IMG/VR virus record: IMGVR_UViG_3300022744_000001
Span: 66,022 to 130,021 of that record
Strand: one strand, 5' to 3'
Length of the DNA: 64,000 nt
From: a virus
Position 1 is the first letter of the stretch. Each line of letters begins with the position of its first letter. Under the pieces are notes generated by a model that was not told the origin of the DNA, did not search any database, and saw only the letters and a program-made list of their open reading frames with translations. The position numbers and the translations under genes were made by a program. Positions 3,355 through 62,172 of the stretch are shown here, piece after piece.

Positions 3355-3768
3355 TTAATCCTCGTCCATCATCATGATCGTGATGACCGGCTCTCCGTTG
3401 TCGCCGGGGCCGCACACGGCCTTGAGGGTCGTCAGGGTGGCACGGATGCGCTTGCGCACCACGTAGACCTGGAACTCGATGATGCTGCCACGACCACCGC
3501 GAGCGATCGCCATCCGGAGCATGTGCAGGATGTCCCAGAGACGGCCGTTGAGGTTGTTGCAGGCGCGCTCGGCGGCCGGGGTCAGCTGGATGCACTCGTT
3601 GAAGACCGTGGCCGTGCAGGCGACGTGGAACTTGAAGCCCGCCTCGCGGACCAGGTTCCCCATCTCACCCTGCATCAGGTCCACGAGAACCCCGTCCTCG
3701 ATAGCCTGAGCGCGAGTGTAAGTGTGGATGACTTCGGCGCCTTCGAAGATGTTGGTATTGTTTTCCAT
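3355..3768 (-). CDS. hypothetical protein (137 aa)
   Basis: ATG at 3768 directly preceded by M1. Confidence 0.6.
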   Translation of the reverse strand: MENNTNIFEGAEVIHTYTRAQAIEDGVLVDLMQGEMGNLVREAGFKFHVACTATVFNECIQLTPAAERACNNLNGRLWDILHMLRMAIARGGRGSIIEFQVYVVRKRIRATLTTLKAVCGPGDNGEPVITIMMMDED

Positions 3769-9114: not shown

Positions 9115-10155
9115 ATGCCACAAGCTCCAACCCCACCGTGGGAAGCTGAGAGGCTCGTCGCGCTCGAGAAACTACGTGTTTTCGGGACTCCCGCAGAAGA
9201 GCGGTTTGATCGGCTCACTAGGCTAGCCTGCAAGACCTTCGGGTTGCCTATCGCGGTCCTCGACCTTCTTGGGGCGGATACCGCTTGGCTCAAGAGCACC
9301 CAGGGGTATCACAAGGTTCGAGCGCCCAGGGCGACGTCGTATTGCGGCTACACGATCTTGCAGGAGAACTCTCTGGTGGTGCCGGACGCGCAGCAGGACC
9401 CGCGCCTCTTCGACAACCCGTACGCCCAGAATTTCCGCTTTTACGCAGGGGTTCCCCTTCGCAGTGCGGGGATGCCAATTGGGGCCTTCTCGGTTTCCGG
9501 CTACACCCCAAGGCTCTGGACAGAGAATGACACCCAGGCCCTCTACGAGTTCGCTCGAGTTGCTGAGTTCGAACTTCGGATCACGAAACTCAGCGAAACC
9601 CAACTCTGTCTCGCAGCAGAGAACGAGGTCAGATACCGTCCCCTCGTTGACGACTTGACGAAGACCTGGAACAAGACCGCGATCATCGAAATTCTGGGGA
9701 GGGAGCTTCGCAAAGCCGCGGAGGCGGACGTCTCCACTGGCATCCTGATGCTCGACATCGACCACTTCAAGAAGGTCAACGAGGAGCGGGGCTACTCCGC
9801 CGGAGACACCCTTTTGCAGGGCCTGGCCGAGCGTCTTCGCGCCGTTCTGCGGCACTCGGACAGCCTGGGGCGGTATGGGGGCGAGGAGTTCGTTGTTGTG
9901 CTTCCTCGATGCACCAGGGAGGACGCTCTCGAGATTGCGGAACGAGTCCGAACCGCGGTGGAGAGCAAACCCTTTGGGGCTATCTCGGCCACGGTATCTG
10001 TGGGGGTCACCGTGGCCGCGGCCCCCTCCCAGAACCACGCCGTTCTACTCCAAGCCGCTGACTTGGCCCTCTATCGAGCCAAGCAGAGGGGTAGAAACCG
10101 GGTCGAGTCTCGTTGGACAACCCCCTCGTTCGCCGCGCTCCGGGCTACGAAGTAG
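9115..10155 (+). CDS. GAF-GGDEF diguanylate cyclase (GGEEF active-site variant, RxxD I-site present)
   Basis: RYGGEEFVVVLP motif, RHSD five residues upstream, N-terminal GAF-like region; GAGGTG RBS. Confidence 0.8.
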   Translation: MPQAPTPPWEAERLVALEKLRVFGTPAEERFDRLTRLACKTFGLPIAVLDLLGADTAWLKSTQGYHKVRAPRATSYCGYTILQENSLVVPDAQQDPRLFDNPYAQNFRFYAGVPLRSAGMPIGAFSVSGYTPRLWTENDTQALYEFARVAEFELRITKLSETQLCLAAENEVRYRPLVDDLTKTWNKTAIIEILGRELRKAAEADVSTGILMLDIDHFKKVNEERGYSAGDTLLQGLAERLRAVLRHSDSLGRYGGEEFVVVLPRCTREDALEIAERVRTAVESKPFGAISATVSVGVTVAAAPSQNHAVLLQAADLALYRAKQRGRNRVESRWTTPSFAALRATK

Positions 10156-52258: not shown

Positions 52259-52339
52259 GAGGGTCTCCTTGGCCTATGAACGCACGAGGGTAGGGCCAGG
52301 CTATACCGCGTCGAGTCGAATTTTCCCTGTGAGCGAGCG

Positions 52340-52520
52340 TACGTCCCCGTATAGGGGCGTGACCGCCGAAACGTTACCAAGGGTGTGGTGGGTGGGCGCG
52401 CGTGGGCTAGGCGGGGCCGAAACCTGTCCAGTGGAGGCAGAATCCGCGGGGGACGGGCTCAGCGGGTAAAGGAAAATGCTTGACAAATGAAAACGGCCAA
52501 AACCTCGCCTTTCCGCGGGG
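52340..52520 (+). ncRNA. candidate non-coding transcript: orphan plus-oriented M1 copy followed by CAAGGGTGTGGTGGGTGGG, element X (AACCTGTCCAGTGGAGGCAGAATCCGC) and a 10-bp hairpin
   Basis: no ATG after the M1 downstream half; conserved elements repeated at 53685 and 56440/56900. Confidence 0.3.
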
Positions 52521-52556
52521 TTTTGGCCTAGCCCGTTTAGGGTGACCGCGAGGGGG

Positions 52557-52858
52557 TCAGTATCCGCCGTGCTTGAAGAGGATTTCCCCGGCCGCGGAGG
52601 CAGGCTCTTCGGGGAGGAACTTGAACCGGAGCTTCTTGCCCTCGTGGTCGAGCATCTCGACGGTCATGAAGCGGAAGCCGCGACCGGAGGCGTCCCAGCC
52701 GATGGAGACCCGGGGGTCGGCGTTGAGGGTCGTACGCAGGTCCGGCAAGAGTTTCCGGATCTCCGCGTAGGTGTCGATGGCGAACTGGGTGTAGACCGCT
52801 TCGATGCGCTTGGAGAGAGTGCCGCCACTGGCGGTCCTGTAGTCGTAGTTGTGCATGT
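52557..52858 (-). CDS. hypothetical protein (100 aa)
   Basis: ATG preceded by palindrome TTGTGCGTTGCACAA. Confidence 0.45.
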
Positions 52859-52896
52859 ATGGGCTCCCTATCTTCCTTGTGCGTTGCACAAAGGCT

Positions 52897-53076
52897 TTAC
52901 CACTGGACGGTGAGTTCGATTCGCTTGGTCTCGAGGGCCTCGAGCAGGGCGTCCACCTCGTCGTGGGTTAGGCCAGTGCCTTCCCGCAGGACCTCGTCGA
53001 TGGCCTGGGGCCGGGCCAGCCCTTGGGCTTCCTTGGCTTGTACGCGCTCGAGAACCGCTTGGGTCTTGGTGTTCAT
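52897..53076 (-). CDS. hypothetical protein (59 aa)
   Basis: GAGAGG RBS. Confidence 0.4.
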   Translation of the reverse strand: MNTKTQAVLERVQAKEAQGLARPQAIDEVLREGTGLTHDEVDALLEALETKRIELTVQW

Positions 53077-53090
53077 GTCCTTGCCTCTCA

Positions 53091-53288
53091 TCAGTCCGGG
53101 GTGTGCCGTTGGTACTCCGACGTCATGGCTTCCAGGACCTCTTGCAGGTCCTCGCCGGTGAAGAAGCGTTCTGCCTTGCGGTATGCCTTCTCCAGCTCCT
53201 GGTCGGTCTTGCACGTACGCGCCAGGGCGATCAGCTGGTCGTAGGTCTCGCTGACATCGTAGCCAGTAGGCTTCTTCTTGCGTGCCAT
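53091..53288 (-). CDS. hypothetical basic protein (65 aa)
   Basis: M1. Confidence 0.5.
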   Translation of the reverse strand: MARKKKPTGYDVSETYDQLIALARTCKTDQELEKAYRKAERFFTGEDLQEVLEAMTSEYQRHTPD

Positions 53289-53327
53289 GTCCTATGAACG
53301 CGCGAGGGGGCTCGAGCCTATACCGGC

Positions 53328-53603
53328 TCAGCGGCCCTGGTCGATGCGGTAGGCCAGCTCGGATTTGGCGCGCACCAGGGCGTCGGCCAGGTAGAGGGTC
53401 TTCTCGGATACGTCCCCGACAGGGCGATGGGTGATGCGGCGGGTCAGGTAGAGCGTCACCTGCTCCCAGGCTCGAGCCATCGCGGAGGCACGCTTCCGGG
53501 CCTCCTCCGTGGTCGCGTGGTTCCAAGCCAGGTCCTGCCACATCCCGATCAGGGCGGCGGACTGGGTACGGGCAGAGTGAAGGGCGATGATTCGTGCGTA
53601 CAT
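53328..53603 (-). CDS. hypothetical protein (91 aa)
   Basis: M1. Confidence 0.55.
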   Translation of the reverse strand: MYARIIALHSARTQSAALIGMWQDLAWNHATTEEARKRASAMARAWEQVTLYLTRRITHRPVGDVSEKTLYLADALVRAKSELAYRIDQGR

Positions 53604-53684
53604 GCCCTAGAAACGCGCGAGCCAGCTCGAGCCTATACCGAAAACGACCACGAACTTTCCTTGTGGGCGAGCACACGTCCAGGT

Positions 53685-53860
53685 TTAGACCGAGCCGTCC
53701 CGGTGCGTTACCAAGGGTGTGGTGGGTGGGAGCCCCCCGGGCGGGCGTCCGGGACCTCGAGCCAAGAAAAACGACATGGCACGAAGATTGTCCGGGGGAT
53801 CTTTCGAACTCGAGCATATAGAAGGCCCCCAGAGGGCCGGGCACATAGAACCCGCAACCC
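53685..53860 (+). ncRNA. second candidate non-coding transcript: orphan plus M1-like copy + CAAGGGTGTGGTGGGTGGG
   Basis: homologous to 52300-52390 element; only ORF after it is A/R/P/G-rich and antisense to a supported gene. Confidence 0.25.
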
Positions 53861-53866
53861 GGGCGG

Positions 53867-54085
53867 CTAGGGCTCGTCCACCTGGGCCACCTTGTGCACC
53901 CGGGGCTCGAGCGAGCTGAGCCGCACCCGCTTCTCCACCAGCTCCCAAACCCCCCGCCGACAAACCGCCACCCGGATCGTCGCCCTCACCCGCGACACCC
54001 GAACCACCACGGCCGCCACCGAGAACGTGAAGCCGTACCCGCCCCGGGACTCATGCCGCCACGTAACACGGTCACCAGCCTTCAC
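53867..54085 (-). CDS. hypothetical protein (GTG start, AAGAGGTAG RBS)
   Basis: RBS. Confidence 0.45.
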   Translation of the reverse strand: MKAGDRVTWRHESRGGYGFTFSVAAVVVRVSRVRATIRVAVCRRGVWELVEKRVRLSSLEPRVHKVAQVDEP

Positions 54086-54189
54086 GGGCTACCTCTTACG
54101 CTGGAGCTGGAAAAGTTCACAAGTGGGCCTCGAGCGGAGAGCGGAATTTGCTTGCTCAAGAAAAGTGCCCTCAACTACCCCTTTTGTCG

Positions 54190-54223
54190 GCCGGTATAGA
54201 ACTGGCCTACCTGGGGCGTTATC
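54190..54223 (+). promoter_or_regulatory. M1 motif (plus)
   Basis: TATAGAAC-N13-GCGTTATC-ATG. Confidence 0.5.
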
Positions 54224-54457
54224 ATGGTCATGAGGATGGCGGTTCAATCTGAGCGTGCGCAACGAGTCGTGAGGCTGGCAGCTGAGGAGGCTGCGAAGCC
54301 CACGACGTCCTTCCTGTTCGCCACGGATGGTCTCGGGGCGTTTGCGGCCCGGGCCGAGGCGATCCTGGCCGACACGGCGGATGCGGCCAAGTCGGTTGGG
54401 ATGAGCGAAGCCGAGCACGAGGCGTATGTAGCCCGCTTCCTCTGCTACGAGGTGTGA
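54224..54457 (+). CDS. hypothetical protein (77 aa)
   Basis: M1. Confidence 0.5.
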   Translation: MVMRMAVQSERAQRVVRLAAEEAAKPTTSFLFATDGLGAFAARAEAILADTADAAKSVGMSEAEHEAYVARFLCYEV

Positions 54458-54460
54458 GCC

Positions 54461-54808
54461 ATGGAGACGATCGTCGAGCTGTGTCCGAAGTGCCAGGGGA
54501 CGGGAAACCTCCCCCAGTACGCCCACGTGCAGAACGGCGTGTGCTTCCGCTGCTCCGGCACGGGTCGCGACCTCCGAGCCGAGCTTGCCACGGCCGTCCA
54601 GAAGCTCGCTCGAGCACGTCGGGAGTGGCAGAGCCTCAACCGGACCAGCAAGCGCGCCAGGGGCGTCCACAAACGCCACATGAAGGAAGAACTCGACCTC
54701 CTCACCCGCGAGGGTAAACAGCTCCGGAAGCACGTGGACACCCTCCAAGCCGCTATCGCCGGTCGTATCCAACTACCCTCTCCCCGTACAAACTCAAATC
54801 ACGTGTAG
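54461..54808 (+). CDS. DnaJ/anti-TRAP-type zinc-finger protein (CPKCQGTG, CFRCSGTG) with helical C-terminus
   Basis: GAGGTGTGAG RBS. Confidence 0.55.
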   Translation: METIVELCPKCQGTGNLPQYAHVQNGVCFRCSGTGRDLRAELATAVQKLARARREWQSLNRTSKRARGVHKRHMKEELDLLTREGKQLRKHVDTLQAAIAGRIQLPSPRTNSNHV

Positions 54809-54928
54809 TTACGGGGTTCTACCCACCCCGTCCAAACGGGCACCTTGCCCATGTGAGCTACCCTGCTATCCCACGCCTGCCTGTTAAAGGGCATCGCCCA
54901 CCGGGGTTGGGGTGGGCGAAGTGGGGTG

Positions 54929-54977
54929 CCGAGGGGAGCTGTTGGTTCAGGGGGAAGGGGACACCAGCTCCCCTCGG
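54929..54977. terminator. 13-bp perfect inverted repeat hairpin between convergent genes (bidirectional terminator candidate)
   Basis: CCGAGGGGAGCTG...CAGCTCCCCTCGG. Confidence 0.55.
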
Positions 54978-54993
54978 CGCGGCCCGGGGTTGA

Positions 54994-55653
54994 TCAAGCG
55001 ACGCGGATGGCGTTCTCGACCTTGGTGCAGATGGCTTCCACGGCCGAGCGAGCACGGTCGGTGCCCACCTTCGCGACGATGGCCGAGAGCTTGGAGAGGA
55101 CCAGGGGGTCCATGGTCTCGAGGACCTTCTCGCCACCCTCGAACTCCGCATCGGCCGCCACAGGGGCCTTGCGGACCTTGCGCTGAGGAGCCACGGCAAC
55201 CGGGGCAGCCTTGCGGCGGCTGGGGATGCCCAGCTCCTTCCGATGGTTGTTCACGACCTTGTAGCAGTAGCCGTACGTGACCGTCTGGTTGTGCTTGTCC
55301 GCCAAGAACTTGATGATGTTCTTGGGCTCCTTGATGCCAGCGTCGTACGCCTGGATGATCAGGGCCGTCTTGTTCACGTGGTCCACTTCCATGCCCTCGC
55401 TCTTCTTCACGGGCTTGGTCGCCACCACAGGGGCAGCCTTGCGGGTCACGACACGCTTCTGGCCCTTGGCCGTCTTCGCGCGCTTGGCCATGTACTTCTG
55501 CTTCACCGTGTAGATGAGCGATGCGTCCAGGTCCATCTGGTGCTTCTCACGCACGTAGACCTTGATGTCCGCAGGCTTGTCGTGGCCCGCATCCATCGCT
55601 TCACGAATCGCAGCCGACTTCGAAAGGGTCGTACCAGCTTCGGGCGTCTCCAT
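54994..55653 (-). CDS. DNA-binding-like protein with two tandem helix-turn-helix-like repeats separated by Lys/Ala/Pro-rich basic linkers
   Basis: internal repeat; GAGGAGAGAAG RBS. Confidence 0.5.
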   Translation of the reverse strand: METPEAGTTLSKSAAIREAMDAGHDKPADIKVYVREKHQMDLDASLIYTVKQKYMAKRAKTAKGQKRVVTRKAAPVVATKPVKKSEGMEVDHVNKTALIIQAYDAGIKEPKNIIKFLADKHNQTVTYGYCYKVVNNHRKELGIPSRRKAAPVAVAPQRKVRKAPVAADAEFEGGEKVLETMDPLVLSKLSAIVAKVGTDRARSAVEAICTKVENAIRVA

Positions 55654-55699
55654 AGCTTCTCTCCTCATCGGGGGCGACCCCACGACTGGCCAAGCCATG

Positions 55700-55896
55700 G
55701 GACCTCCTCTCTCGTTAGTTCCGAGCCTCCAGACTGCCTGGAAGGTCGATATGCAGGAGTGTGCAAGGAAAACAGTGCTGGTACAACAACAAAAACCACA
55801 GGAAAACCACAGCTTCCCGCAAACCCGCGTGGGTATTCGCGAAAAACCGTGGTTAGATTGTGGGTAGAGAGTGGGTTTTACCCTCCCAGGGAGGGG
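55700..55896. promoter_or_regulatory. lower-GC intergenic region with AACCACAG / CTGTGGTT boxes and a 7-bp hairpin
   Basis: seen directly. Confidence 0.4.
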
Positions 55897-56223
55897 TCAG
55901 ACCACTGGGGCAGCCGTGGGAGCGGCTTTCTTGGATGCCTTCTTGGCCTTGGGGGCAGGGGTTTCACCACTGCTCGCCGCTGCGGGCTTCTCAGCGGCCT
56001 TCTTGACCCTCGGGCCACGCTCGGGGAAGAGGCAAAGGGTGCCCTTGCGGTCGATGATGCGGGCCATCTTGCCCCCGAAGCTGTGCGGGCCCTTCCCCTC
56101 CTTCTCGAGGATCTGGCGCAGGATGTCTCGACCCTCCGCTTGAAGGGTCTTCACCTGGGCCTGAGTGGTCTCGGTCTCGGCCTTGTTGGCCACGTACTTG
56201 TCAAAGAGTGATGTCTTGCTCAT
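55897..56223 (-). CDS. small protein with histone H1-like Lys/Ala/Pro-rich C-terminal tail
   Basis: M2; tail AKKASKKAAPTAAPVV. Confidence 0.5.
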   Translation of the reverse strand: MSKTSLFDKYVANKAETETTQAQVKTLQAEGRDILRQILEKEGKGPHSFGGKMARIIDRKGTLCLFPERGPRVKKAAEKPAAASSGETPAPKAKKASKKAAPTAAPVV

Positions 56224-56564
56224 GGTCCAGCTCACTACACCGGCCGTAGGCAAGCCCTGGAAAGAAAACCGGCCCCACCGCAGGACGCTCCAGCAAGGCT
56301 GTGTGGGTTCACAGGGACGCCTATCCCTCCCCCACGCGCTTCTTGGTAGCCCGCCATCGTCCCAGCGCGGTAGAACCGGTAGCCGCACCCTCTACCCTCC
56401 CCCTCGAACCACGTCAAGCCACCCCACGTAGGTCAGAGGTACTCGAAACTTGTCCAGTGGGAGACGAATCCGCCCAAACACCCTCTCAGCTCGAGCGGCA
56501 AAACCCTACGTGGCAAAACTTGACCAAACTACCCCCTTTCCCAGGGTAGCTCAGAAGTGGTTTG

Positions 56565-56810
56565 TTAGACCCCGACCTTGTCCAGGATGTCGCGCGCCCT
56601 CTTGGGAGGAAGGGTTGGTTCGGGTAAGGGTGGCCGCCCTTTCTTGGTAGGTTCGCTCGAGAGGGTCTGCCCAGCCTCAGCAGCCAGGATACCCAGGGTA
56701 ATGACTCGCACCAGGGTCGCGTGGAAAGACACCCCCTCCGGGGTGAGGGCCTTGATGCGCTCCTTGAACTCGGTCGGGAGACGAACCGGAATTGGGTTTT
56801 CTCTTGCCAT
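56565..56810 (-). CDS. ribbon-helix-helix (Arc/MetJ/CopG-type) DNA-binding protein
   Basis: PIPVRLPTEFKERIKALT beta-strand/helix signature at N-terminus. Confidence 0.55.
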   Translation of the reverse strand: MARENPIPVRLPTEFKERIKALTPEGVSFHATLVRVITLGILAAEAGQTLSSEPTKKGRPPLPEPTLPPKRARDILDKVGV

Positions 56811-56814
56811 TTTG

Positions 56815-56990
56815 GGTGACTACCTTTCCTGTATACCGTGGTGCACCATTTCCGTATACCGGTTTATACCATTCCTGTATACCGCGCGCAACCCCTCCCC
56901 GGCTGGCGCGTTCACGTGCCCACCCACCACACCCTTGTGAACGCGCCAGCCCCCTCGTTCCTATACCTGGACGTGGCCCAGCCCACGAAC
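56815..56990. promoter_or_regulatory. operator/promoter hub: four GTATACC boxes, perfect 15-bp inverted repeat GGCTGGCGCGTTCAC/GTGAACGCGCCAGCC around GGGTGTGGTGGGTGGG, and minus-oriented M1
   Basis: seen directly. Confidence 0.55.
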
Positions 56991-57035
56991 AATCGCACCC
57001 GTATAGAACCAGCCATCCTCGTGCGTTAGAGGGAC
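56990..57035 (+). promoter_or_regulatory. M1 motif (plus)
   Basis: TATAGAAC-N13-GCGTTAGAGGGAC-ATG. Confidence 0.55.
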
Positions 57036-57383
57036 ATGGCACGCTACCAACACATCGCAATCGGGGCCCTCGAGAGGGGCGTTCGCACCCTTGCCAAGAG
57101 CCTCGAGAAGCTCGGGCTCACCACCCAGGTCCACGTGTTCAAGAGCGGCCCCGGCGGCGCCACGTACTTCGGAGCGTCCTACGTCGAACTCGAGGTGAGC
57201 GTCACCTTCAATACCCCCGAGGGCGAGCAGGATGCCTCCCACACGGTCAAGTTCCTGGCCAACGGGTACACGAGCAACGACGCCGACGAAATCGGCGGTA
57301 CCCAGGGCTGGCGCCCCATGGGCGAGGAAGCTCGTACCCGCATCCTCACCAAGCTCCAGGAGCAGGGCTGGAAGCTCCCCTGA
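57036..57383 (+). CDS. hypothetical protein (115 aa)
   Basis: M1. Confidence 0.55.
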   Translation: MARYQHIAIGALERGVRTLAKSLEKLGLTTQVHVFKSGPGGATYFGASYVELEVSVTFNTPEGEQDASHTVKFLANGYTSNDADEIGGTQGWRPMGEEARTRILTKLQEQGWKLP

Positions 57384-57437
57384 GCCAGTATAGAACCACC
57401 CACCCTCGCGCGTTCATAGAGCACAAGGAGCAAGTCA

Positions 57438-57524
57438 TGGCCAAGCGCAAGACCCCCACGTTCATCATCGAGGAGAATGTCGGCAACGGCCACCACGACC
57501 CCTCGCGCGTTCATAGGGCATGAG
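57438..57524 (+). CDS. 28-aa ORF between a full M1 copy (with added AAGGAG RBS) and a second GCGCGTTCAT half-motif
   Basis: seen directly; coding status uncertain. Confidence 0.3.
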
Positions 57525-57804: not shown

Positions 57805-58335
57805 AGGGCCAACACTTCGACTCTGACCAAAAGGTTCGACCAACCCCTACCCGAATACCGCACAACCTCAAAAGTCAAACGAAAAGCGTGGGTACCTGAC
57901 CAGCACCAACCATGTCCGCAGGTAAATCCCGCACGCGGTAGTCAAGCACAATCCACAACCATTACGCTTTGTGGTCTCGGTACCTGACCATAGCTCGGTA
58001 CCTTGTCATCCGTGTGTTGTGGCCGGTGTACATACCTCCAAAGCTATACAAACCTCTAGGCACGGAAGTTGCAGAGAGGTTTTGGAACGGGTGGGGGTTT
58101 GGCAACGACCACAACGACACGACTTTAAAAGGACTTTGGCCCTTCGGGCCGGGTCGGTTTCGAGTCTTGTCCAGGTTGTGCAAACGGCCCTCCCCTGGGA
58201 CCTCTTTTGTCTGGAGTTGGTCCCCCGTCTCCACGGCACCACCTGGGCCTCTGGCGGGCCTTGGTTGTGCTCTTGGGGGTTTCTCCCCTGGGGGTTTCTC
58301 CCTTTGCTCCTATGGGGCTCTTCTGGGCGTGTCCT
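57805..58335. other. 530-bp apparently non-coding boundary region with GGTACCTGACCA x2 and TGGGGGTTTCTCCC x2 direct repeats and a GGCCC-TTC-GGGCC hairpin
   Basis: no convincing ORF; composition switches here. Confidence 0.4.
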
Positions 58336-59193
58336 TTACTTGGCTCGCTCCTGTTCTTCCTGGTCTCTCCGCAGGGCTTCTTGGACGTCTTCCCACCACT
58401 GTGTGGCTTGGTTGATGAAGGCGTCTTCGGCACCTTCTACCTGGTCGAATCCCGGGTACGTATTGACCTCTAGGAGTGTGGGGGGACCTTCCTTTGGGAC
58501 TTGGTAGTCGATGCCCACGACATCTAGGTTGAGCTTGTGGGCTGTGAGGGAGGCGTGGCTGAGGAGGGTGTGTCCTTTGGGGGTGGTGGGTTCGAGGGGG
58601 AGGGTTTCGATCGCGGCTTCGACATTCTTGCGCCAGTCGTGGCTGTGGTAGCGGAGGTGCCACGTGTGGGGGCCGATGATGAGGATGCGGTCGGAGGTTC
58701 CTGGGATGTAGGGTTCGACGAGGGTGTCGTCTGGGGCGGTGAAGGGGCCTTGGGAGAGGGCTTTATCTTCGCCGCAGTGGGAGTTGCTCCATTTGAAGAC
58801 GTGGGGGGCGGGGGTGGGCAGTTCGAGTCTGTGTCCTTGGGGGAGGAAGCCTCTGGGGACATGGGAGTTGGGGTTGGCCAGGAGGAGGGAGAGGACCCTA
58901 TCGTCGTGGGGCAGTGTGGGGCGGATGTTTGGGAACGTGGGGGTGTTGGCGAGGGCGAGTGCTCTTCTTGTCTGTTGGGCGTGGGGGAAGTAGCCGTAGT
59001 AGATGACCCCGTTTGGTTCGAGCCATCTTCCTGGGACGCGTTGGGACTCGATACGGACTTGGCCATCGAGGCTGTAGGCGGGGGGTGGGGCTGCGTAGTG
59101 GACGACTCGGGTGTTTTTGAGGCGGGTGCGGAGTTGGGCGTCGGTGGTGGGGTCGATGCCTATGCTGATGAGGAGGGGGTCGTTCGGGGTCAT
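58336..59193 (-). CDS. ATP-grasp family ligase-like protein
   Basis: C-terminal LLEVNTYPGF block typical of ATP-grasp; C-rich codons on strongly strand-skewed segment. Confidence 0.55.
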   Translation of the reverse strand: MTPNDPLLISIGIDPTTDAQLRTRLKNTRVVHYAAPPPAYSLDGQVRIESQRVPGRWLEPNGVIYYGYFPHAQQTRRALALANTPTFPNIRPTLPHDDRVLSLLLANPNSHVPRGFLPQGHRLELPTPAPHVFKWSNSHCGEDKALSQGPFTAPDDTLVEPYIPGTSDRILIIGPHTWHLRYHSHDWRKNVEAAIETLPLEPTTPKGHTLLSHASLTAHKLNLDVVGIDYQVPKEGPPTLLEVNTYPGFDQVEGAEDAFINQATQWWEDVQEALRRDQEEQERAK

Positions 59194-59229
59194 GGGGGAC
59201 GGTTTAGCACGGGCGGTGTAGCTAGGAGG

Positions 59230-59805
59230 ATGCGGATTTTCCTCAACGACGTGCGAATCGATGCCACAGGGGCCTACTATGAGAGTGGTTTTGTGTACTT
59301 CCGCGTCCCTGAAGGGCTTTATGAGCCTATGGTTTCGGTCCTTGTCGAGTTGGGCATGTGGCGACAGGGGCCGAAGTTCTGGGGGAGGCTAGCGGGGCCG
59401 CGGCTTGTGGTGGGCGGGATGGCTCGATGGGTTCTTCCGTATGCGTCGATGGGTTATCGGGACGACTGTCAGGTGGCGGATGGGGAGCGGGTGTGGCGGT
59501 TGCGGATGAACCGTGCTGGGAGTCTGGAGTGGGGCTGCACTTCGGACGACGTGGTTGTGCGTGAGGCGACTTGTGACGAGTGGGCGGTATTGCACCGGGG
59601 GAAGGTGGTGGGGATTGTGGACGACATGGGCAAGACGTTGGGGGATGTTTTGCGTGAGGCTCGGGGGCTGGTTCCTTGTCTGCCGGTGAAGCTCGAGTTC
59701 GTCTCTCCCCCCGTGGTCACGGCGGCGGATGGTCAGGTGTTTGTGATGGAGCGGGTGGGTGAGCCGGAGCCCCGGGTTTTGTCTCGGTTCGACTTGATCG
59801 GGTGA
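59230..59805 (+). CDS. hypothetical protein ending SRFDLIG
   Basis: M2 (GGTGTAGC-N7-ATG). Confidence 0.5.
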   Translation: MRIFLNDVRIDATGAYYESGFVYFRVPEGLYEPMVSVLVELGMWRQGPKFWGRLAGPRLVVGGMARWVLPYASMGYRDDCQVADGERVWRLRMNRAGSLEWGCTSDDVVVREATCDEWAVLHRGKVVGIVDDMGKTLGDVLREARGLVPCLPVKLEFVSPPVVTAADGQVFVMERVGEPEPRVLSRFDLIG

Positions 59806-59808
59806 GCG

Positions 59809-60354
59809 ATGCTGTACCAGGTCTACGACTTGAGGATGGGTCCGGTGGCGGGGTTTTACCTGCCTCCGGTGATGGGGCCGACGGGTCATGTTCGGGTGGT
59901 GAACAGTGCGGGGCTCTTTGAGCGGGGGTCGGCCTCTTACATCTTCGTCCGGGTGGACGGGGTGCAGTTCCGTGTGGACGGGACGTGGGGCATCTATCCT
60001 GGTGGGATGGGGGCGCCTGAGTTGGCCTTCACGGGGACGTACTCGGTTCCGGATCGTGTGGAGGCGGGGCTCACGTGGACGTTCACGGACTTCGGGTGGG
60101 AGACCACGTTCATGGGGCATGAGCTTGTGGTGGCGTTGAGCCCGGACTTGGAGGACTCCTACATCTGGGTTGTCTGGTTTGCGGACACTCAGGTCGGTGG
60201 GCCGTATGGGTTGGGGCGGTCGGGGCTTTTCGAGCAAGCGAAGAAGGACGCCTATGCGTGGGCACGGCGTCTTGTTCTTGCGTTTGTGGAGGAGGCGGAC
60301 CCGTTTGAGGAGGTGCGGTCGGGTCTCGTCTCGAGGTTCGATTTGATCGGGTAG
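59809..60354 (+). CDS. hypothetical protein ending SRFDLIG
   Basis: GGGTGAGCG RBS; shares C-terminal SRFDLIG with preceding gene. Confidence 0.5.
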   Translation: MLYQVYDLRMGPVAGFYLPPVMGPTGHVRVVNSAGLFERGSASYIFVRVDGVQFRVDGTWGIYPGGMGAPELAFTGTYSVPDRVEAGLTWTFTDFGWETTFMGHELVVALSPDLEDSYIWVVWFADTQVGGPYGLGRSGLFEQAKKDAYAWARRLVLAFVEEADPFEEVRSGLVSRFDLIG

Positions 60355-60356
60355 GT

Positions 60357-60830
60357 TCAGCCTTGGCTGAGCGCGTGTTTGGCCCAGAAGTCTCTCGAGG
60401 CGACGAGTTCTTCCCAGGTTGCGATGGAGGGGTCACCGGGCTCCCTCGGTGCTGCGGGGCCGGGGTACACCGTATAGAGGACATGGGGTTGGCCATCGTG
60501 TGGGCCGATGACCATGGTCACCAGGTGTGTGGTCGTCGGTCCCAGCGTGGTCATGCGTGAGGCGTAGGGGCGACCTCCGCGGACGAAGTAGAAGGCGTTC
60601 TCGTTGGGGACCGCTTGGTCTCCCACGGTGGGGCCGCGGAGCTGGCAGGCGTACGCTTTGGGGCTCGTGAAGGTGAGGATGAGGGGCGGGAACGGTGTGA
60701 ACGTTCTTGGGGTCCTCTGCCAAGCCTCGAAATGCTCTTGGGCGAGTTCGAGGATGCGTGGGCGCTCCTCCGCGGCAAAGTGGTCGAGGTGCGTGTCCGT
60801 GTGGATGGTCAGCGTCTTGTTCATGCTCAT
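60357..60830 (-). CDS. hypothetical protein
   Basis: ORF track; start ambiguous (60830/60893). Confidence 0.35.
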   Translation of the reverse strand: MSMNKTLTIHTDTHLDHFAAEERPRILELAQEHFEAWQRTPRTFTPFPPLILTFTSPKAYACQLRGPTVGDQAVPNENAFYFVRGGRPYASRMTTLGPTTTHLVTMVIGPHDGQPHVLYTVYPGPAAPREPGDPSIATWEELVASRDFWAKHALSQG

Positions 60831-60915
60831 GTGACGTGCGGGGGCGGTGGCTTCTGACAGCTCTCGGTGTATTTGATCCGGCAATCTCTTCATGGGATAG
60901 TGGGGCCCTGGTATT

Positions 60916-61395
60916 ATGCAGGCAATTATACAGGCAGTTTTCGCACGTGCGGCGGATTTGGTTCAGGAGCGATGGGTTCCGGTTCGTGACCGGAAGGACC
61001 AGTTTGTGGGCGAGGTTGGCCAATGCCCGCTCGTGACGGTGCTCGGTGAGGTTGGTTGTCGGCCCCCTCGTGTGCCTGGTCTTGAGTCTCGAGGGCCTTA
61101 CGCGGCGTTCCAGCTGTGGGCGCAGCTGGCTCGCGGGTATCTCATGGGTGACGACGAGTTTCGGGCCGCGCTCTATCGATCCGCGTTGGCCTATGCTCCG
61201 GTGGCTATTGACCATGCGGTCTCGGTGGGCCACGTCGGTGCGGTTCGTGCGCTTCGGGCCCGGTTTGAGGCGTTGGATTCTCCTTTTCAGATCAAGCAGC
61301 AAGTACGAGCGGTTATGGCCTTCCCGCTCTACTGCGACCTTCACGTTTTCCGGTCCCCCGGTGAGGCGGCTGCTTACTTGCGGAGGGCGTTCTAG
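60916..61395 (+). CDS. hypothetical protein; 5' end lies in a 12-nt tandem repeat ATTATGCAGGCA/ATTATACAGGCA
   Basis: ORF track. Confidence 0.4.
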   Translation: MQAIIQAVFARAADLVQERWVPVRDRKDQFVGEVGQCPLVTVLGEVGCRPPRVPGLESRGPYAAFQLWAQLARGYLMGDDEFRAALYRSALAYAPVAIDHAVSVGHVGAVRALRARFEALDSPFQIKQQVRAVMAFPLYCDLHVFRSPGEAAAYLRRAF

Positions 61396-61802
61396 TGGCG
61401 GCTCGAAAGAAGGCGCCGGGTCCGGCTCTGGACGATGCTGCGGCGTGGCGGAAAGAGGCGTTGAAGCAGAAGAAGGGGCTTCGGAAGCTCACGGACACGG
61501 TTCAGGGGTTTCTTGCCCGGTTCGATCTGCTCATGAAGGAGCCGTCCACGGTGGAGCGGGGCAAGAAGCTGGCTTTGCTCGCCAATCAGCTCGAGCTGGC
61601 GAACGATTCGGCTCGGCACTTCACCTTGGATCTTCCGTTGAAGCCGAAGGCTCCCAGGGAGTCGCGCATTGTGGAGGGGCCGCCCATGGACGACGACCCT
61701 CTTTGCCAGCACTGTGGGCATGGGCAGTCGAATCACGCCTATGGTCACGACGACTGCTTCCGCTGCGACCGTGAGTGCCAGGAGTTCAAGGGGACCGGTT
61801 GA
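61395..61802 (+). CDS. hypothetical protein with C-terminal Cys/His zinc-binding cluster
   Basis: TAGTG stop-start overlap. Confidence 0.45.
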   Translation: MAARKKAPGPALDDAAAWRKEALKQKKGLRKLTDTVQGFLARFDLLMKEPSTVERGKKLALLANQLELANDSARHFTLDLPLKPKAPRESRIVEGPPMDDDPLCQHCGHGQSNHAYGHDDCFRCDRECQEFKGTG

Positions 61803-61861
61803 GTTCTACGACCTTGTGGGCCTCATAGGTCGCGTGGTCTCGAGAACGGGCCGGACAAAGA

Positions 61862-62014
61862 TCATGCCGGGTCGTTTTTGTCCTTCTCGGGGCCGAGGAG
61901 TTCGCGGCGGCGTTCCACGGCTCGCTTGAGGGCGTCGTTCGGGGCGGGTGGGTTCAGGAGGGCCTCGGCAAGCCGTGCTTGGTCCTCGGGGCTGAGCTTG
62001 ATTTCGTCTTCCAT
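61862..62014 (-). CDS. possible 50-aa DUF1778/TacA-like antitoxin-type ORF, no adjacent toxin
   Basis: MEDEIKLSPEDQARLAEALLNPPAPNDALKRAVERRREL; below ORF-track cutoff. Confidence 0.25.
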   Translation of the reverse strand: MEDEIKLSPEDQARLAEALLNPPAPNDALKRAVERRRELLGPEKDKNDPA

Positions 62015-62035
62015 GGCGCAATCCTAGCAGAAAGG

Positions 62036-62065
62036 CCAGGGTCCCGGGGCTCATCGGGACCCTGG
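62036..62065. terminator. 10-bp GC hairpin CCAGGGTCCC/GGGACCCTGG
   Basis: seen directly. Confidence 0.45.
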
Positions 62066-62089
62066 CGTGCACATTCCCATCTACTAGCA

Positions 62090-62172
62090 CTACGGCCCCA
62101 GGGTTCCAAATTGTGACAGGGGCGGTTTAGAATTGTTGAAGCTCGTGCGTTCTTGGGGCAAAGGGGGCGTTC
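62090..62172 (+). promoter_or_regulatory. M1 variant (TTAGAATT...GCGTTCTT...ATG)
   Basis: consensus-like. Confidence 0.45.

What the first reader, a model, noticed from the sequence alone, without database searches (positions are those of the whole stretch)
56815..56990. Operator-like hub upstream of the RHH regulator gene
There are four GTATACC boxes within 60 bp; this box is the core of the M1 upstream half. There is also a perfect 15-bp inverted repeat whose arms are the M1 downstream half (GCGCGTTCAC), flanking the G-rich 19-mer. Together these suggest that a dedicated DNA-binding protein recognises M1 sub-elements, possibly the adjacent ribbon-helix-helix protein (56565-56810). That would give global control over the M1 regulon.
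Basis: inference. Interest (0 to 1): 0.65.

Follow-up and report, generated by a model that had tools for sequence, protein, structure and literature searches.

The report
Repeat array before a small repressor gene
In a 448-kb uncultured huge phage, the gene for a small ribbon-helix-helix-like protein has a 121-base leader holding three evenly spaced look-alikes of the phage's own promoter box plus a perfect inverted repeat over its promoter; this is most likely an ordinary self-regulating operator, not shown to be a genome-wide control hub.

Summary
The sequence features are real and far from chance, but they were described slightly wrongly.

- **Boxes:** there are three exact GTATACC boxes, not four, at 56831, 56854 and 56877. 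They are the only three in the window. The fourth box is TTATACC. They are the cores of three tandem 23-bp units (56821-56889).
- **Inverted repeat:** the perfect 15-bp repeat (56901-15 / 56937-51) is unique in the window.
- **Right arm:** it is the downstream half of a bona fide minus-strand M1 copy (GTATAG 56966-61). M1 is GTATAG-N14-GCGCGTT, with 33 copies in the window, and behaves as a phage promoter.
- **Layout:** this copy points at the RHH gene, so the boxes sit at about +43 to +111 of a 121-nt leader.
- **Box versus M1:** read on the gene strand, the boxes (CGGTATACR) differ from the M1 upstream half (cCRGTATAGR) only at position 6. That base is G in 33/33 M1 copies and C in 3/3 strong boxes, which makes the box core palindromic.

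The best reading is local autoregulation by cooperative binding, acting as a roadblock. Global control of M1 promoters is not excluded but has no support. No box array occurs elsewhere in about 80 kb. No relatives were found for comparison.

The parts
56565..56810 (-). 81-aa ORF, an RHH-like putative repressor. Predicted layout: extended N-terminus, helix 13-22, G26-V27-S28 turn, helix 29-45, disordered Pro-rich linker, C-terminal helix 69-79.
56821..56889 (-). Three tandem 23-bp units. Each holds a strong palindromic GTATAC core (GTATACC on the + strand at 56831-37, 56854-60 and 56877-83) and a weaker heptad 10 bp away. This is the candidate operator array. It lies at about +43 to +111 relative to the predicted start of the RHH transcript.
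   Evidence: (D1). Unique in the window and in 0 of 200 simulations. The core is conserved while the 5-nt spacer is not.
56818..56893 (-). Full run of seven direct heptads. On the minus strand they read GGTTGCG, GGTATAC, GGTATAA, GGTATAC, GGTGCAC, GGTATAC and GGTAGTC, spaced alternately 10 and 13 bp.
   Evidence: Read directly from the sequence. Only the three GGTATAC boxes and GGTATAA are statistically secure.
56901..56915 (.). Left arm of the perfect 15-bp inverted repeat. It is an orphan inverted copy of the M1 downstream half, at about +17 to +31 of the RHH transcript. On the + strand it has no GTATAG at the M1 distance; the nearest GTATAC is 9 bp too far away.
   Evidence: (I4).
56918..56936 (-). 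G-rich 19-mer AAGGGTGTGGTGGGTGGGC. It spans the predicted start site (about -5 to +14). The same sequence follows two other M1 copies, at 52379 and at 53713 (one mismatch).
56937..56951 (.). Right arm of the inverted repeat. It is the downstream (-10-like) half of the minus-strand M1 promoter, at about -6 to -20.
56938..56966 (-). M1-type promoter P_C for the RHH gene: GTATAG at 56966-56961, 14-nt spacer, GCGCGTT at 56946-56940. The predicted start site is near 56931, giving a 121-nt leader to the ATG at 56810.
   Evidence: PWM score of 32 bits leave-one-out, in the middle of the M1 range. The start site is inferred from 12 M1 copies whose ATG sits at exactly offset 35.
56967..56990 (-). Upstream block GTGGGCTGGGCCACGTCCAG. 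It is shared with the two other G-rich-leader M1 copies and lies immediately upstream of the GTATAG box.
   Evidence: Alignment of the three copies and (I1, I6).
57001..57038 (+). Divergent standard M1 promoter, 35 bp from P_C. Its leaderless ATG at 57036 opens the 115-aa gene 57036-57383.
   Evidence: 26.8 bits.

Best explanation
The region is the control region of one small gene, not a hub.

Promoter. A normal copy of the phage's own promoter motif lies on the minus strand at 56966-56938 and points at the RHH-like gene. The motif, M1, is GTATAG-N14-GCGCGTT. The transcript should start near 56931 and carry a 121-nt leader.

Operator. Inside the leader lie three 23-bp tandem units. Each has a palindromic GTATAC core and a weaker heptad one helical turn away. 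I infer that dimers of the 81-aa RHH-like protein bind these units cooperatively. That would block RNA polymerase coming from P_C, acting as a roadblock or by occluding the ribosome-binding region at the DNA level. The gene would then limit its own expression.

Relation to M1. The box is a one-base variant of the M1 upstream half (GTATAG to GTATAC). The change makes the box two-fold symmetric, as a dimer would require, and at the same time unlike every real M1 site.

Inverted repeat. It consists of the promoter's own downstream half plus one extra inverted copy 21 bp further on. It brackets the start site and the G-rich 19-mer. I take it to be a second control element acting on DNA at this promoter; its binder is unknown.

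Shown: the anatomy, its statistical significance, M1 membership of the minus-strand copy, and the fold-level RHH resemblance. Inferred: the transcription start, who binds the boxes, and the sign of regulation.
For: M1 behaves as a promoter.
- 33 sites score at least 15 bits; the next best site scores -1.9.
- All sites face a downstream ORF. Twelve have the ATG at exactly offset 35, and about 15 have a GGAG-type Shine-Dalgarno with an ATG at offset 43-51.
- The minus-strand copy at 56966 scores 32 bits leave-one-out. The first good ORF after it is the RHH gene, at offset 156.

The box array is non-random.
- It is unique in the window and arose in 0 of 200 simulations.
- The 18-nt cores are conserved while the 5-nt spacers are not.
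- The pentamer GTATA occurs 39 times: 29 in M1 sites, 7 in this array and only 3 elsewhere, against 12.4 expected. The array is thus the only cluster of M1-like upstream boxes without a downstream partner.

The protein is RHH-compatible.
- RHH repressors are known to bind arrays of short repeats next to their own genes. The omega protein binds 6-10 heptads (PMC4627068). ArtA binds ACATGACATG (PMC2777438).

The RNA alternative is weak.
- The units fold weakly as RNA, with z between -0.1 and +1.1. That favours action on DNA.

The array is local.
- No other box array occurs in about 80 kb. That fits local autoregulation.
Against: - No binding data exist, and no relatives exist for a conservation test. 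The protein is an ORFan in 5.8 billion and 1.84 billion protein sets. The M1 pattern with its downstream start-codon block (GTATAG-N14-GCGCGTT-N4-GGNCATG) was absent from viral contigs and gave only one chance hit in metagenome contigs.
- Classical RHH autorepressors place their operators over the -35/-10 region. These boxes lie 43-111 nt downstream of the predicted start site.
- The start site is inferred, not mapped.
- Another DNA-binding protein is encoded in the same leftward gene cluster: the 219-aa protein with two HTH-like domains. It could equally fit the bipartite direct-repeat units.
- The role of the inverted repeat is unexplained.
Confidence: 0.42

Rival explanations
1. The RHH protein recognises M1 sub-elements in general: the GTATA box and/or GCGCGTT. 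It would thereby tune all M1 promoters, and the hub would be its highest-affinity site.
For: On the minus strand the boxes are one base away from the M1 upstream half. GTATA is otherwise nearly confined to M1 sites. RHH global regulators exist, such as omega and ArtA.
Against: The differing base is G in 33/33 M1 sites and C in 3/3 strong boxes. That looks like insulation between two recognition systems rather than sharing. Single M1 sites lack the tandem arrangement that RHH proteins need for cooperative binding. The GCGCGTT arm is explained by an ordinary M1 copy. There is no direct evidence.
Confidence: 0.12
2. The 23-bp units are bound by a different phage protein. The most obvious candidate is the 219-aa protein encoded about 1.2 kb downstream in the same leftward cluster. 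Its two HTH-like domains could each read one of the two direct heptads, 10 bp apart, in a unit.
Against: Fold matches are weak and generic. The strong cores are perfect palindromes, which suits a symmetric dimer better than a tandem-domain monomer. The gene directly next to the array is the RHH gene.
Confidence: 0.15
3. The boxes are decoy upstream (-35-like) elements. They would bind the factor that reads M1 (a phage sigma-like protein or polymerase), titrating it or parking it in the RHH leader.
For: The boxes are near-identical to the M1 upstream half, flanks included. Box spacing of 23 bp equals one hexamer plus the 17-bp promoter spacer. GTATA is depleted elsewhere.
Against: Every strong box carries the one base never seen in an M1 site (C at position 6). 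No box site scores above 0 with the M1 matrix.
Confidence: 0.07
4. The repeats act in the RNA leader. Three GGA-containing motifs (ACAGGAAUGG, ACGGAAAUGG, ACAGGAAAGG) lie 23 nt apart, the last next to the weak ribosome-binding site. A CsrA-like or other RNA-binding protein would bind them to control translation.
For: The motifs lie in the predicted 5' UTR. The sequence resembles GGA-in-loop sites (from my own knowledge of CsrA sites; not tested here). The RHH gene has a poor Shine-Dalgarno, GGAAAGG 12 nt upstream of the ATG.
Against: The unit hairpins are weak. The array folds no better than shuffles, with z between -0.1 and +1.1. The whole leader gives z = -1.6. The GTGCAC variant keeps the DNA palindrome but breaks RNA pairing with GUAUAC.
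Confidence: 0.07
5. The array is a set of iterons or a centromere-like site for replication or partition. The RHH protein would be the centromere-binding protein, as ParG, ParR and omega are.
For: Three direct repeats of 23 bp lie next to an RHH-like gene. Known RHH centromere binders use such arrays (PMC3130281 and PMC9499535, found).
Against: No ParA, ParM or Rep family was detected among 119 window ORFs or in the gene tables of the flanks. No AT-rich unwinding element was noticed nearby when reading the sequence (local base composition was not computed). GC skew gives no clean origin signal here.
Confidence: 0.05
6. The array is a non-functional tandem duplication of a 23-bp segment that happened to contain an M1-like upstream box.
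For: Tandem duplications arise easily. Only three copies are present, and no comparative data exist.
Against: Divergence is strongly non-uniform: cores are 14-17 of 18 identical and spacers 0-1 of 5. The location is precise, between promoter and start codon. The G-to-C change is identical in all three copies.
Confidence: 0.07

Closest known systems
Omega (ω2) repressor of plasmid pSM19035 and its heptad operators
   Same: A small RHH protein. Arrays of short 7-bp repeats, direct or inverted, lie next to its own gene. Binding is cooperative and needs at least two adjacent repeats. The protein represses its own promoter (PMC4627068).
   Different: Omega heptads are unspaced, number 6-10, and overlap the -35/-10 of sigma-A promoters at several loci. 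Here the strong boxes are 23 bp apart, with weak ones between them. They lie 43-111 nt downstream of the predicted start site and occur at a single locus. There is no sequence homology.
Arc/Mnt (phage P22 immI) and CopG (pMV158) autorepressors
   Same: A phage or plasmid RHH protein encoded as the first gene behind the promoter it controls. The operator is built from subsites about one helical turn apart and bound by a dimer of dimers. The control region is divergent. (Established knowledge of these systems; not re-read here.)
   Different: Their operators lie between or over the -35 and -10 elements and are single 21-bp or 13-bp sites. Here three units lie in the transcribed leader, and a separate 15-bp inverted repeat covers the -10 region and start site.
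ArtA of pSK41
   Different: ArtA sites (ACATGACATG) occur at many promoters of the plasmid. Here no second site was found in about 80 kb.
Mycobacteriophage L5 gp71 'stoperators'
   Same: Repressor sites lie inside transcribed DNA and block elongation. The site sequence overlaps a promoter -35-like word. (Established knowledge: Brown et al. 1997; not re-read here.)
   Different: L5 sites are single asymmetric 13-mers dispersed about 30 times over the genome and bound by an HTH repressor. Here there is one tandem cluster and a presumed RHH protein.
ParR/parC and ParG/parH centromeres
   Same: An RHH protein plus tandem direct repeats (about 11-20 bp units, or 4-bp boxes) upstream of the operon. 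These serve as both operator and centromere (PMC3130281).
   Different: No partner ParA or ParM NTPase gene is nearby. The RHH gene appears to be monocistronic, followed by a hairpin and a 341-nt gap.

Membership tests
Ribbon-helix-helix (MetJ/Arc/CopG) DNA-binding proteins | N-terminal strand followed by two helices (beta-alpha-alpha) of about 45 residues | tested here: met
Ribbon-helix-helix (MetJ/Arc/CopG) DNA-binding proteins | G-x-S/T/N turn at the start of helix 2 | tested here: met
   G26-V27-S28 immediately precedes helix 29-45 (sequence, helices).
Ribbon-helix-helix (MetJ/Arc/CopG) DNA-binding proteins | Significant match to an RHH sequence profile (Pfam or PHROG) or to a solved RHH protein | tested here: not met
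   No Pfam hit up to E = 10, for the full protein or the N-terminal 42-48 aa. No PHROG hit below E = 0.27. No PDB sequence hit to an RHH protein. No homologue at all in two very large protein sets.
Ribbon-helix-helix (MetJ/Arc/CopG) DNA-binding proteins | Homodimer whose paired beta-strands enter the major groove; sequence-specific DNA binding | not testable with these tools
   Only single chains could be modelled, and there are no binding data.
Autoregulatory RHH operator (Arc, CopG, omega type) | Two or more repeated subsites about one helical turn apart, next to the regulator gene | tested here: met
   Seven direct heptads at alternating 10/13-bp spacing, three of them with palindromic GTATAC cores, lie 8-83 bp upstream of the ATG.
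Autoregulatory RHH operator (Arc, CopG, omega type) | Operator overlaps the -35/-10 region of the regulated promoter | tested here: not met
   Relative to the only M1-type promoter (56966-56938), the units lie at about +43 to +111. No sigma-70-type promoter was found in the array by the consensus scan. A weak TTGCGC-17-TGgTATAAA candidate lacks the final T.
M1 promoter motif of this phage (GTATAG-N14-GCGCGTT) | Both halves present at fixed spacing and facing a gene (tested for the minus-strand site at 56966) | tested here: met
   32.1 bits leave-one-out, in the middle of the range of 28 exact-core copies. The site faces the RHH ORF.
M1 promoter motif of this phage (GTATAG-N14-GCGCGTT) | The same test applied to the GTATACC boxes and to the orphan left arm of the inverted repeat | tested here: not met
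   No site built on a box scores above 0. The boxes carry C where all 33 M1 sites have G. On the + strand, the GTATAC-to-GTT offset is 33 instead of 24.
Iteron origin or RHH-type partition centromere | Adjacent Rep or ParA/ParM gene | tested here: not met
   No such Pfam family was found among 119 window ORFs or in the gene tables of the fetched flanks.
L5-type stoperator system | Many dispersed copies of the site in transcribed regions | tested here: not met
   The box occurs only in this one cluster within about 80 kb. The remaining ~370 kb of the genome was not examined.

The most novel reading that the evidence does not exclude
The array and the mirrored downstream half form a switch that couples an ORFan RHH protein to the transcription machinery of a 448-kb phage. 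The GTATAC boxes are one base away from the upstream box of every M1 promoter. They would let the RHH protein compete with the still unidentified M1-reading factor, or act as decoys for it. One small protein would then set the timing of more than 30 promoters per 64 kb.
Probability: 0.1. Interest if true: 0.7.

Novelty: new member of a known kind. Interest (0 to 1): 0.35.

Why it matters
Taken alone, this is a standard design: a small repressor gene preceded by tandem operator-like repeats. It would be one more example of RHH-type autoregulation. Its value lies in the context.

- **The genome.** It is a 448-kb, apparently circular, 61% GC huge-phage genome, and almost every protein tested has no detectable relative.
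- **Its promoters.** It uses a very uniform promoter motif of its own, often with leaderless genes.
- **This locus.** In about 80 kb it is the only place where the promoter's upstream word appears in a deliberately altered, palindromic and clustered form.

That makes the locus the best entry point for experiments on transcription control in this phage. It also provides a clean pair of sites (GTATAG and GTATAC) for testing how a promoter reader and a repressor are kept apart.

Tried and rejected
**Comparative analysis failed.**
- The RHH protein and the 219-aa neighbour have no homologue other than themselves.
- The region has no blastn match in phage or plasmid collections.
- Public contigs carrying the gene are 100% identical to the window.
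- The vault-like protein has huge-phage homologues, but LR756500 is 24% GC with no synteny and no M1 motif.

**My own error.** The collection scans used a 15-N spacer; the true spacer is 14 N.
- The single genome-contig scan was thereby wasted, so the absence of M1 from reference genomes is NOT established.
- Correct-spacing scans gave 0 hits in viral contigs and one chance hit in metagenome contigs.

**Other negative results.**
- Rfam gave nothing at gathering threshold for the window. A relaxed search of 52300-57100 gave one chance-level match (E = 0.6), outside the finding.
- Foldseek on the RHH model gave nothing.
- The sigma-70 promoter and terminator scan of the region gave nothing useful.
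- RNA folding of the leader and of the units showed no significant structure.
- An origin reading from GC skew had no clean signal.
- Walking further along the 448-kb contig was blocked. Only window-encoded proteins can be looked up, and one guessed start codon was not on record.

**Reading rejected.** Read on the + strand, the boxes appear to differ from M1 at two invariant positions. Read on the gene strand, they differ at one.

Full report
**1. What the window is**

The window is 60.8% GC. It belongs to a metagenomic element.

- The RHH ORF occurs, 100% identical, on four contigs read from JGI, Logan and ENA assemblies; the 8.5-kb JGI and 47.7-kb Logan contigs were aligned to the window.
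- The longest contig is ENA ERZ27252002 k141_47206, 448,224 bp.
- Window position 1 corresponds to contig position 390,733. Window 57352-57492 equals both the last and the first 141 bp of the contig. The genome is therefore most likely circular or circularly permuted, and the window runs across the arbitrary contig break.
- Several hits point to a huge phage. An 878-aa major-vault-protein-like ORF is 37% identical over its full length to proteins of uncultured huge phages of 462-735 kb. There are also Tad2-like and phage ProQ-C-like hits and a T4_Y16D hit in the flank.
- Almost all other proteins tested have no family assignment.

**2. What M1 is**

The spacing is essentially invariant: GTT lies at offset 24 in 31 of 32 copies.

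- A matrix built from 28 exact-core copies separates the window cleanly. Thirty-three sites score at least 15 bits, and the next best scores -1.9.
- Every copy faces an ORF. Twelve have the ATG at exactly offset 35. About fifteen have a GGAG-type Shine-Dalgarno with an ATG at offset 43-51.
- Read as hexamers, the motif is GTATAG, a 17-bp spacer, then CGTT(A/C)(C/A), with the start codon 7 nt after the second hexamer. This is the geometry of a bacterial sigma-type promoter that makes leaderless or very short-leader mRNAs. That reading is an inference; no start site has been mapped.
- The word GTATA occurs 39 times: 29 in M1 sites, 7 in the array discussed below, and only 3 elsewhere, against 12.4 expected.

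**3. The observation**

There are three, not four, exact GTATACC boxes, at 56831, 56854 and 56877. These are the only three in the window. The fourth box is TTATACC at 56864.

- The exact boxes are 23 bp apart and form the cores of three tandem 23-bp units (56821-56889).
- Such a triple occurs nowhere else in the window and in none of 200 simulated sequences.
- The 18-nt cores are 14-17/18 identical, while the 5-nt spacers share 0-1/5. That argues for selection on the core rather than a recent neutral duplication.
- Weaker heptads alternate with the strong ones at 10/13-bp spacing.
- The perfect 15-bp inverted repeat (56901-15 / 56937-51, 21-nt spacer) is confirmed and unique, with 0.02 expected.

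**4.

- The right arm of the inverted repeat is the downstream half of a complete M1 copy on the minus strand (GTATAG 56966-56961). It scores 32 bits leave-one-out, and its first downstream ORF is the RHH gene.
- With the start site placed as in the leaderless copies (near 56931), the RHH mRNA has a 121-nt leader. The left arm of the repeat then lies at +17 to +31, the three units at +43 to +111, and the ATG at +122.
- A second, standard M1 copy diverges 35 bp away (57001, +) and drives a leaderless 115-aa gene.
- Within 56700-57100, only these two sites score above 0 as M1.
- On the + strand, the left arm has no partner box at the M1 distance. The nearest GTATAC is 9 bp too far away.

**5. 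How the boxes relate to M1**

Read on the gene strand, the boxes are (C)CGGTATAC(R). The M1 consensus is cC(A/G)GTATAG(A/G).

- They differ at a single position. It is G in all 33 M1 sites and C in all three strong boxes.
- The change makes the core a perfect palindrome (GTATAC). One weak box is also a palindrome (GTGCAC).
But the two site classes are strictly separated. I read this as insulation between two recognition systems, not sharing.

**6. A special promoter class**

The promoter of the RHH gene is one of three M1 copies that share two extra blocks. The others are at 52349 (+) and 53683 (+).

- One block is an upstream sequence (GTGGGC..G..CACGTCCAG). The other is the identical G-rich 19-mer across the start site.
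- All three sit back to back with a standard M1 copy.
- The other two are followed by stretches of about 130-150 nt with no convincing ORF, ending in hairpins and converging on genes of the other strand. They look like small RNA genes.
- Only the RHH copy carries the extra inverted arm and the box array.

**7. The protein**

- The 81-aa ORF has no homologue in either large protein collection, no Pfam or PHROG match, and no PDB sequence match to an RHH protein.
- Its single-sequence AlphaFold model is confident over residues 11-40 (pLDDT 87-90). It shows an extended N-terminus, helices at 13-22 and 29-45, a disordered proline-rich stretch and a C-terminal helix.
- A G-V-S turn precedes helix 2, as in RHH proteins.
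- I therefore accept 'RHH-like' at the fold level only.

**8. Mechanism**

The best-supported reading is local autoregulation. Dimers of the RHH-like protein would bind the three units cooperatively and obstruct transcription coming from P_C.

- This matches the general logic of omega, Arc, CopG and ArtA.
- It differs in where the operator lies: in the leader, not over the promoter.
- The inverted repeat is a separate element acting on DNA that covers the -10 region and the start site. Its right arm lies upstream of the predicted start, so it cannot form an RNA hairpin in this transcript. I could not assign a binder to it.
- RNA-level models have no support: the units and the leader fold no better than shuffled sequences.
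- The 219-aa protein of the same gene cluster is a serious alternative binder. It has two confident HTH-like domains joined by basic linkers.
- Partition and origin readings lack the partner genes.

**9. The global-control claim**

Nothing excludes weak binding of the box binder to M1 sites, but nothing supports it either. No further box or GTATAC occurs in the window or in 16 kb of fetched flanks. About 370 kb of the genome remains unexamined.

**10. Limits**

- No relatives exist for covariation or conservation tests.
- One of my capped scans, the only genome-contig scan, used a wrong spacer length. Absence of M1 from reference genomes is therefore not established.
- All statements about transcription starts and binding are inferences.

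**Verdict**

The features are real. The design is probably ordinary: an RHH-type autoregulatory operator behind a phage-specific promoter, in an unusual genome. The 'hub' interpretation is only partly supported.

Noticed in passing
window, 33 sites (e.g. 3803-, 11096-, 25887-, 51989-, 53323-, 57001+, 62794+): M1 (GTATAG-N14-GCGCGTT) behaves as a phage-specific promoter. Scores are cleanly bimodal (33 sites at 15 bits or more, the next at -1.9). Twelve copies have a leaderless ATG at exactly offset 35, and about 15 have a GGAG plus an ATG at offset 43-51. The downstream half contains CGTT, as ECF-type -10 elements do (from memory). No sigma or polymerase gene was found in the window.
   Followed up: partly
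window 52349-52535 (+) and 53683-~53860 (+): Two M1 copies share the G-rich 19-mer and the upstream block with the RHH promoter. Each is followed by about 130-150 nt with no convincing ORF, ending in a hairpin (52495-52528; GGCCCCCAGAGGGCC near 53824). Both converge on minus-strand genes. They are candidate small RNAs with no Rfam match.
   Followed up: partly
window 56430-56565 (+), in the 341-nt gap between the RHH stop and the next gene: This is a paralogue of the body of candidate RNA A. It shares the 30-mer CGAAACYTGTCCAGTGG.AG.C.GAATCCGC and a terminal hairpin, but has a decayed promoter (GGTAGAACC in place of GGTATAGAACC). RNA A is therefore strongly complementary to any leftward transcript crossing this gap (duplex z about -6). 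That suggests an antisense link between RNA A and the RHH gene cluster.
   Followed up: partly
window 57492; L007 142-607: The 448-kb ENA contig carries 466 bp that the window and the JGI contig lack. The extra DNA completes a small ORF (about 57 aa), adds a 106-aa RecA_N-like ORF and holds a full M1 copy. In the window, the deletion leaves an orphan M1 downstream half (57505-57514) and a truncated 27-aa ORF ahead of the 94-aa gene. The phage population is thus polymorphic here, and the Logan contigs also break at this point.
   Followed up: partly
window 30822-33458 (+): An 878-aa major-vault-protein-like ORF (Pfam MVP_shoulder 2e-20, Vault_3, Vault). It is 37% identical over its full length to ORFs in uncultured huge phages LR756500 (462 kb) and LR756501/LR756503 (735 kb). 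Those genomes are otherwise unrelated; LR756500 is 24% GC.
   Followed up: partly
window 54994-55653 (-) and 55897-56223 (-): Two genes lie downstream of the RHH gene. One is a 219-aa protein with two internally repeated HTH-like three-helix domains and lysine-rich disordered linkers. The other is a 108-aa protein with a histone-H1-like KKAA/PAAK tail. Both are ORFans and look like DNA-binding or nucleoid-type proteins.
   Followed up: partly
whole window: Outside M1 sites and the box array, GTATA is under-represented: 3 observed against about 12 expected. This is consistent with selection against stray promoter-like boxes.
   Followed up: partly
window 9115-10155 (+); one or more unlocated ORFs: A GAF-GGDEF diguanylate cyclase gene. 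Single ORFs also hit Tad2-like (Thoeris anti-defence), Phage_ProQ_C_like, Multi_ubiq, Peptidase_M10 and DUF6573. The batch search did not report which ORF carries each hit, apart from DUF6573 at 3355-3768.
   Followed up: no
window 58001-62000: GC skew jumps to +0.2 to +0.3, and AT skew falls to -0.25 to -0.33, after being mildly negative over the previous 50 kb. The cause was not examined.
   Followed up: no
window 61862-62014 (-): A 50-aa ORF has a weak precomputed TacA1 (RHH antitoxin) hit. It may be a second small RHH-like protein. Its upstream region shows no GTATAC boxes, but it does have a 12-bp perfect hairpin (62035-62066) and a GTTTAG-type M1 variant at 62125 (+).
   Followed up: partly
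window 54928-54978, 33482-33515, 52495-52528, 62035-62066: GC-rich perfect or near-perfect hairpins without T-runs sit at gene ends or between convergent genes. They are probably this phage's terminators. The 15-bp inverted repeat in the finding differs from them in having a 21-nt loop.
   Followed up: no
window 34565-34655 (+): ARAGORN reports a 91-nt tRNA-Ala (CGC) that overlaps a predicted minus-strand ORF. It is unusually long and may be a false positive.
   Followed up: no
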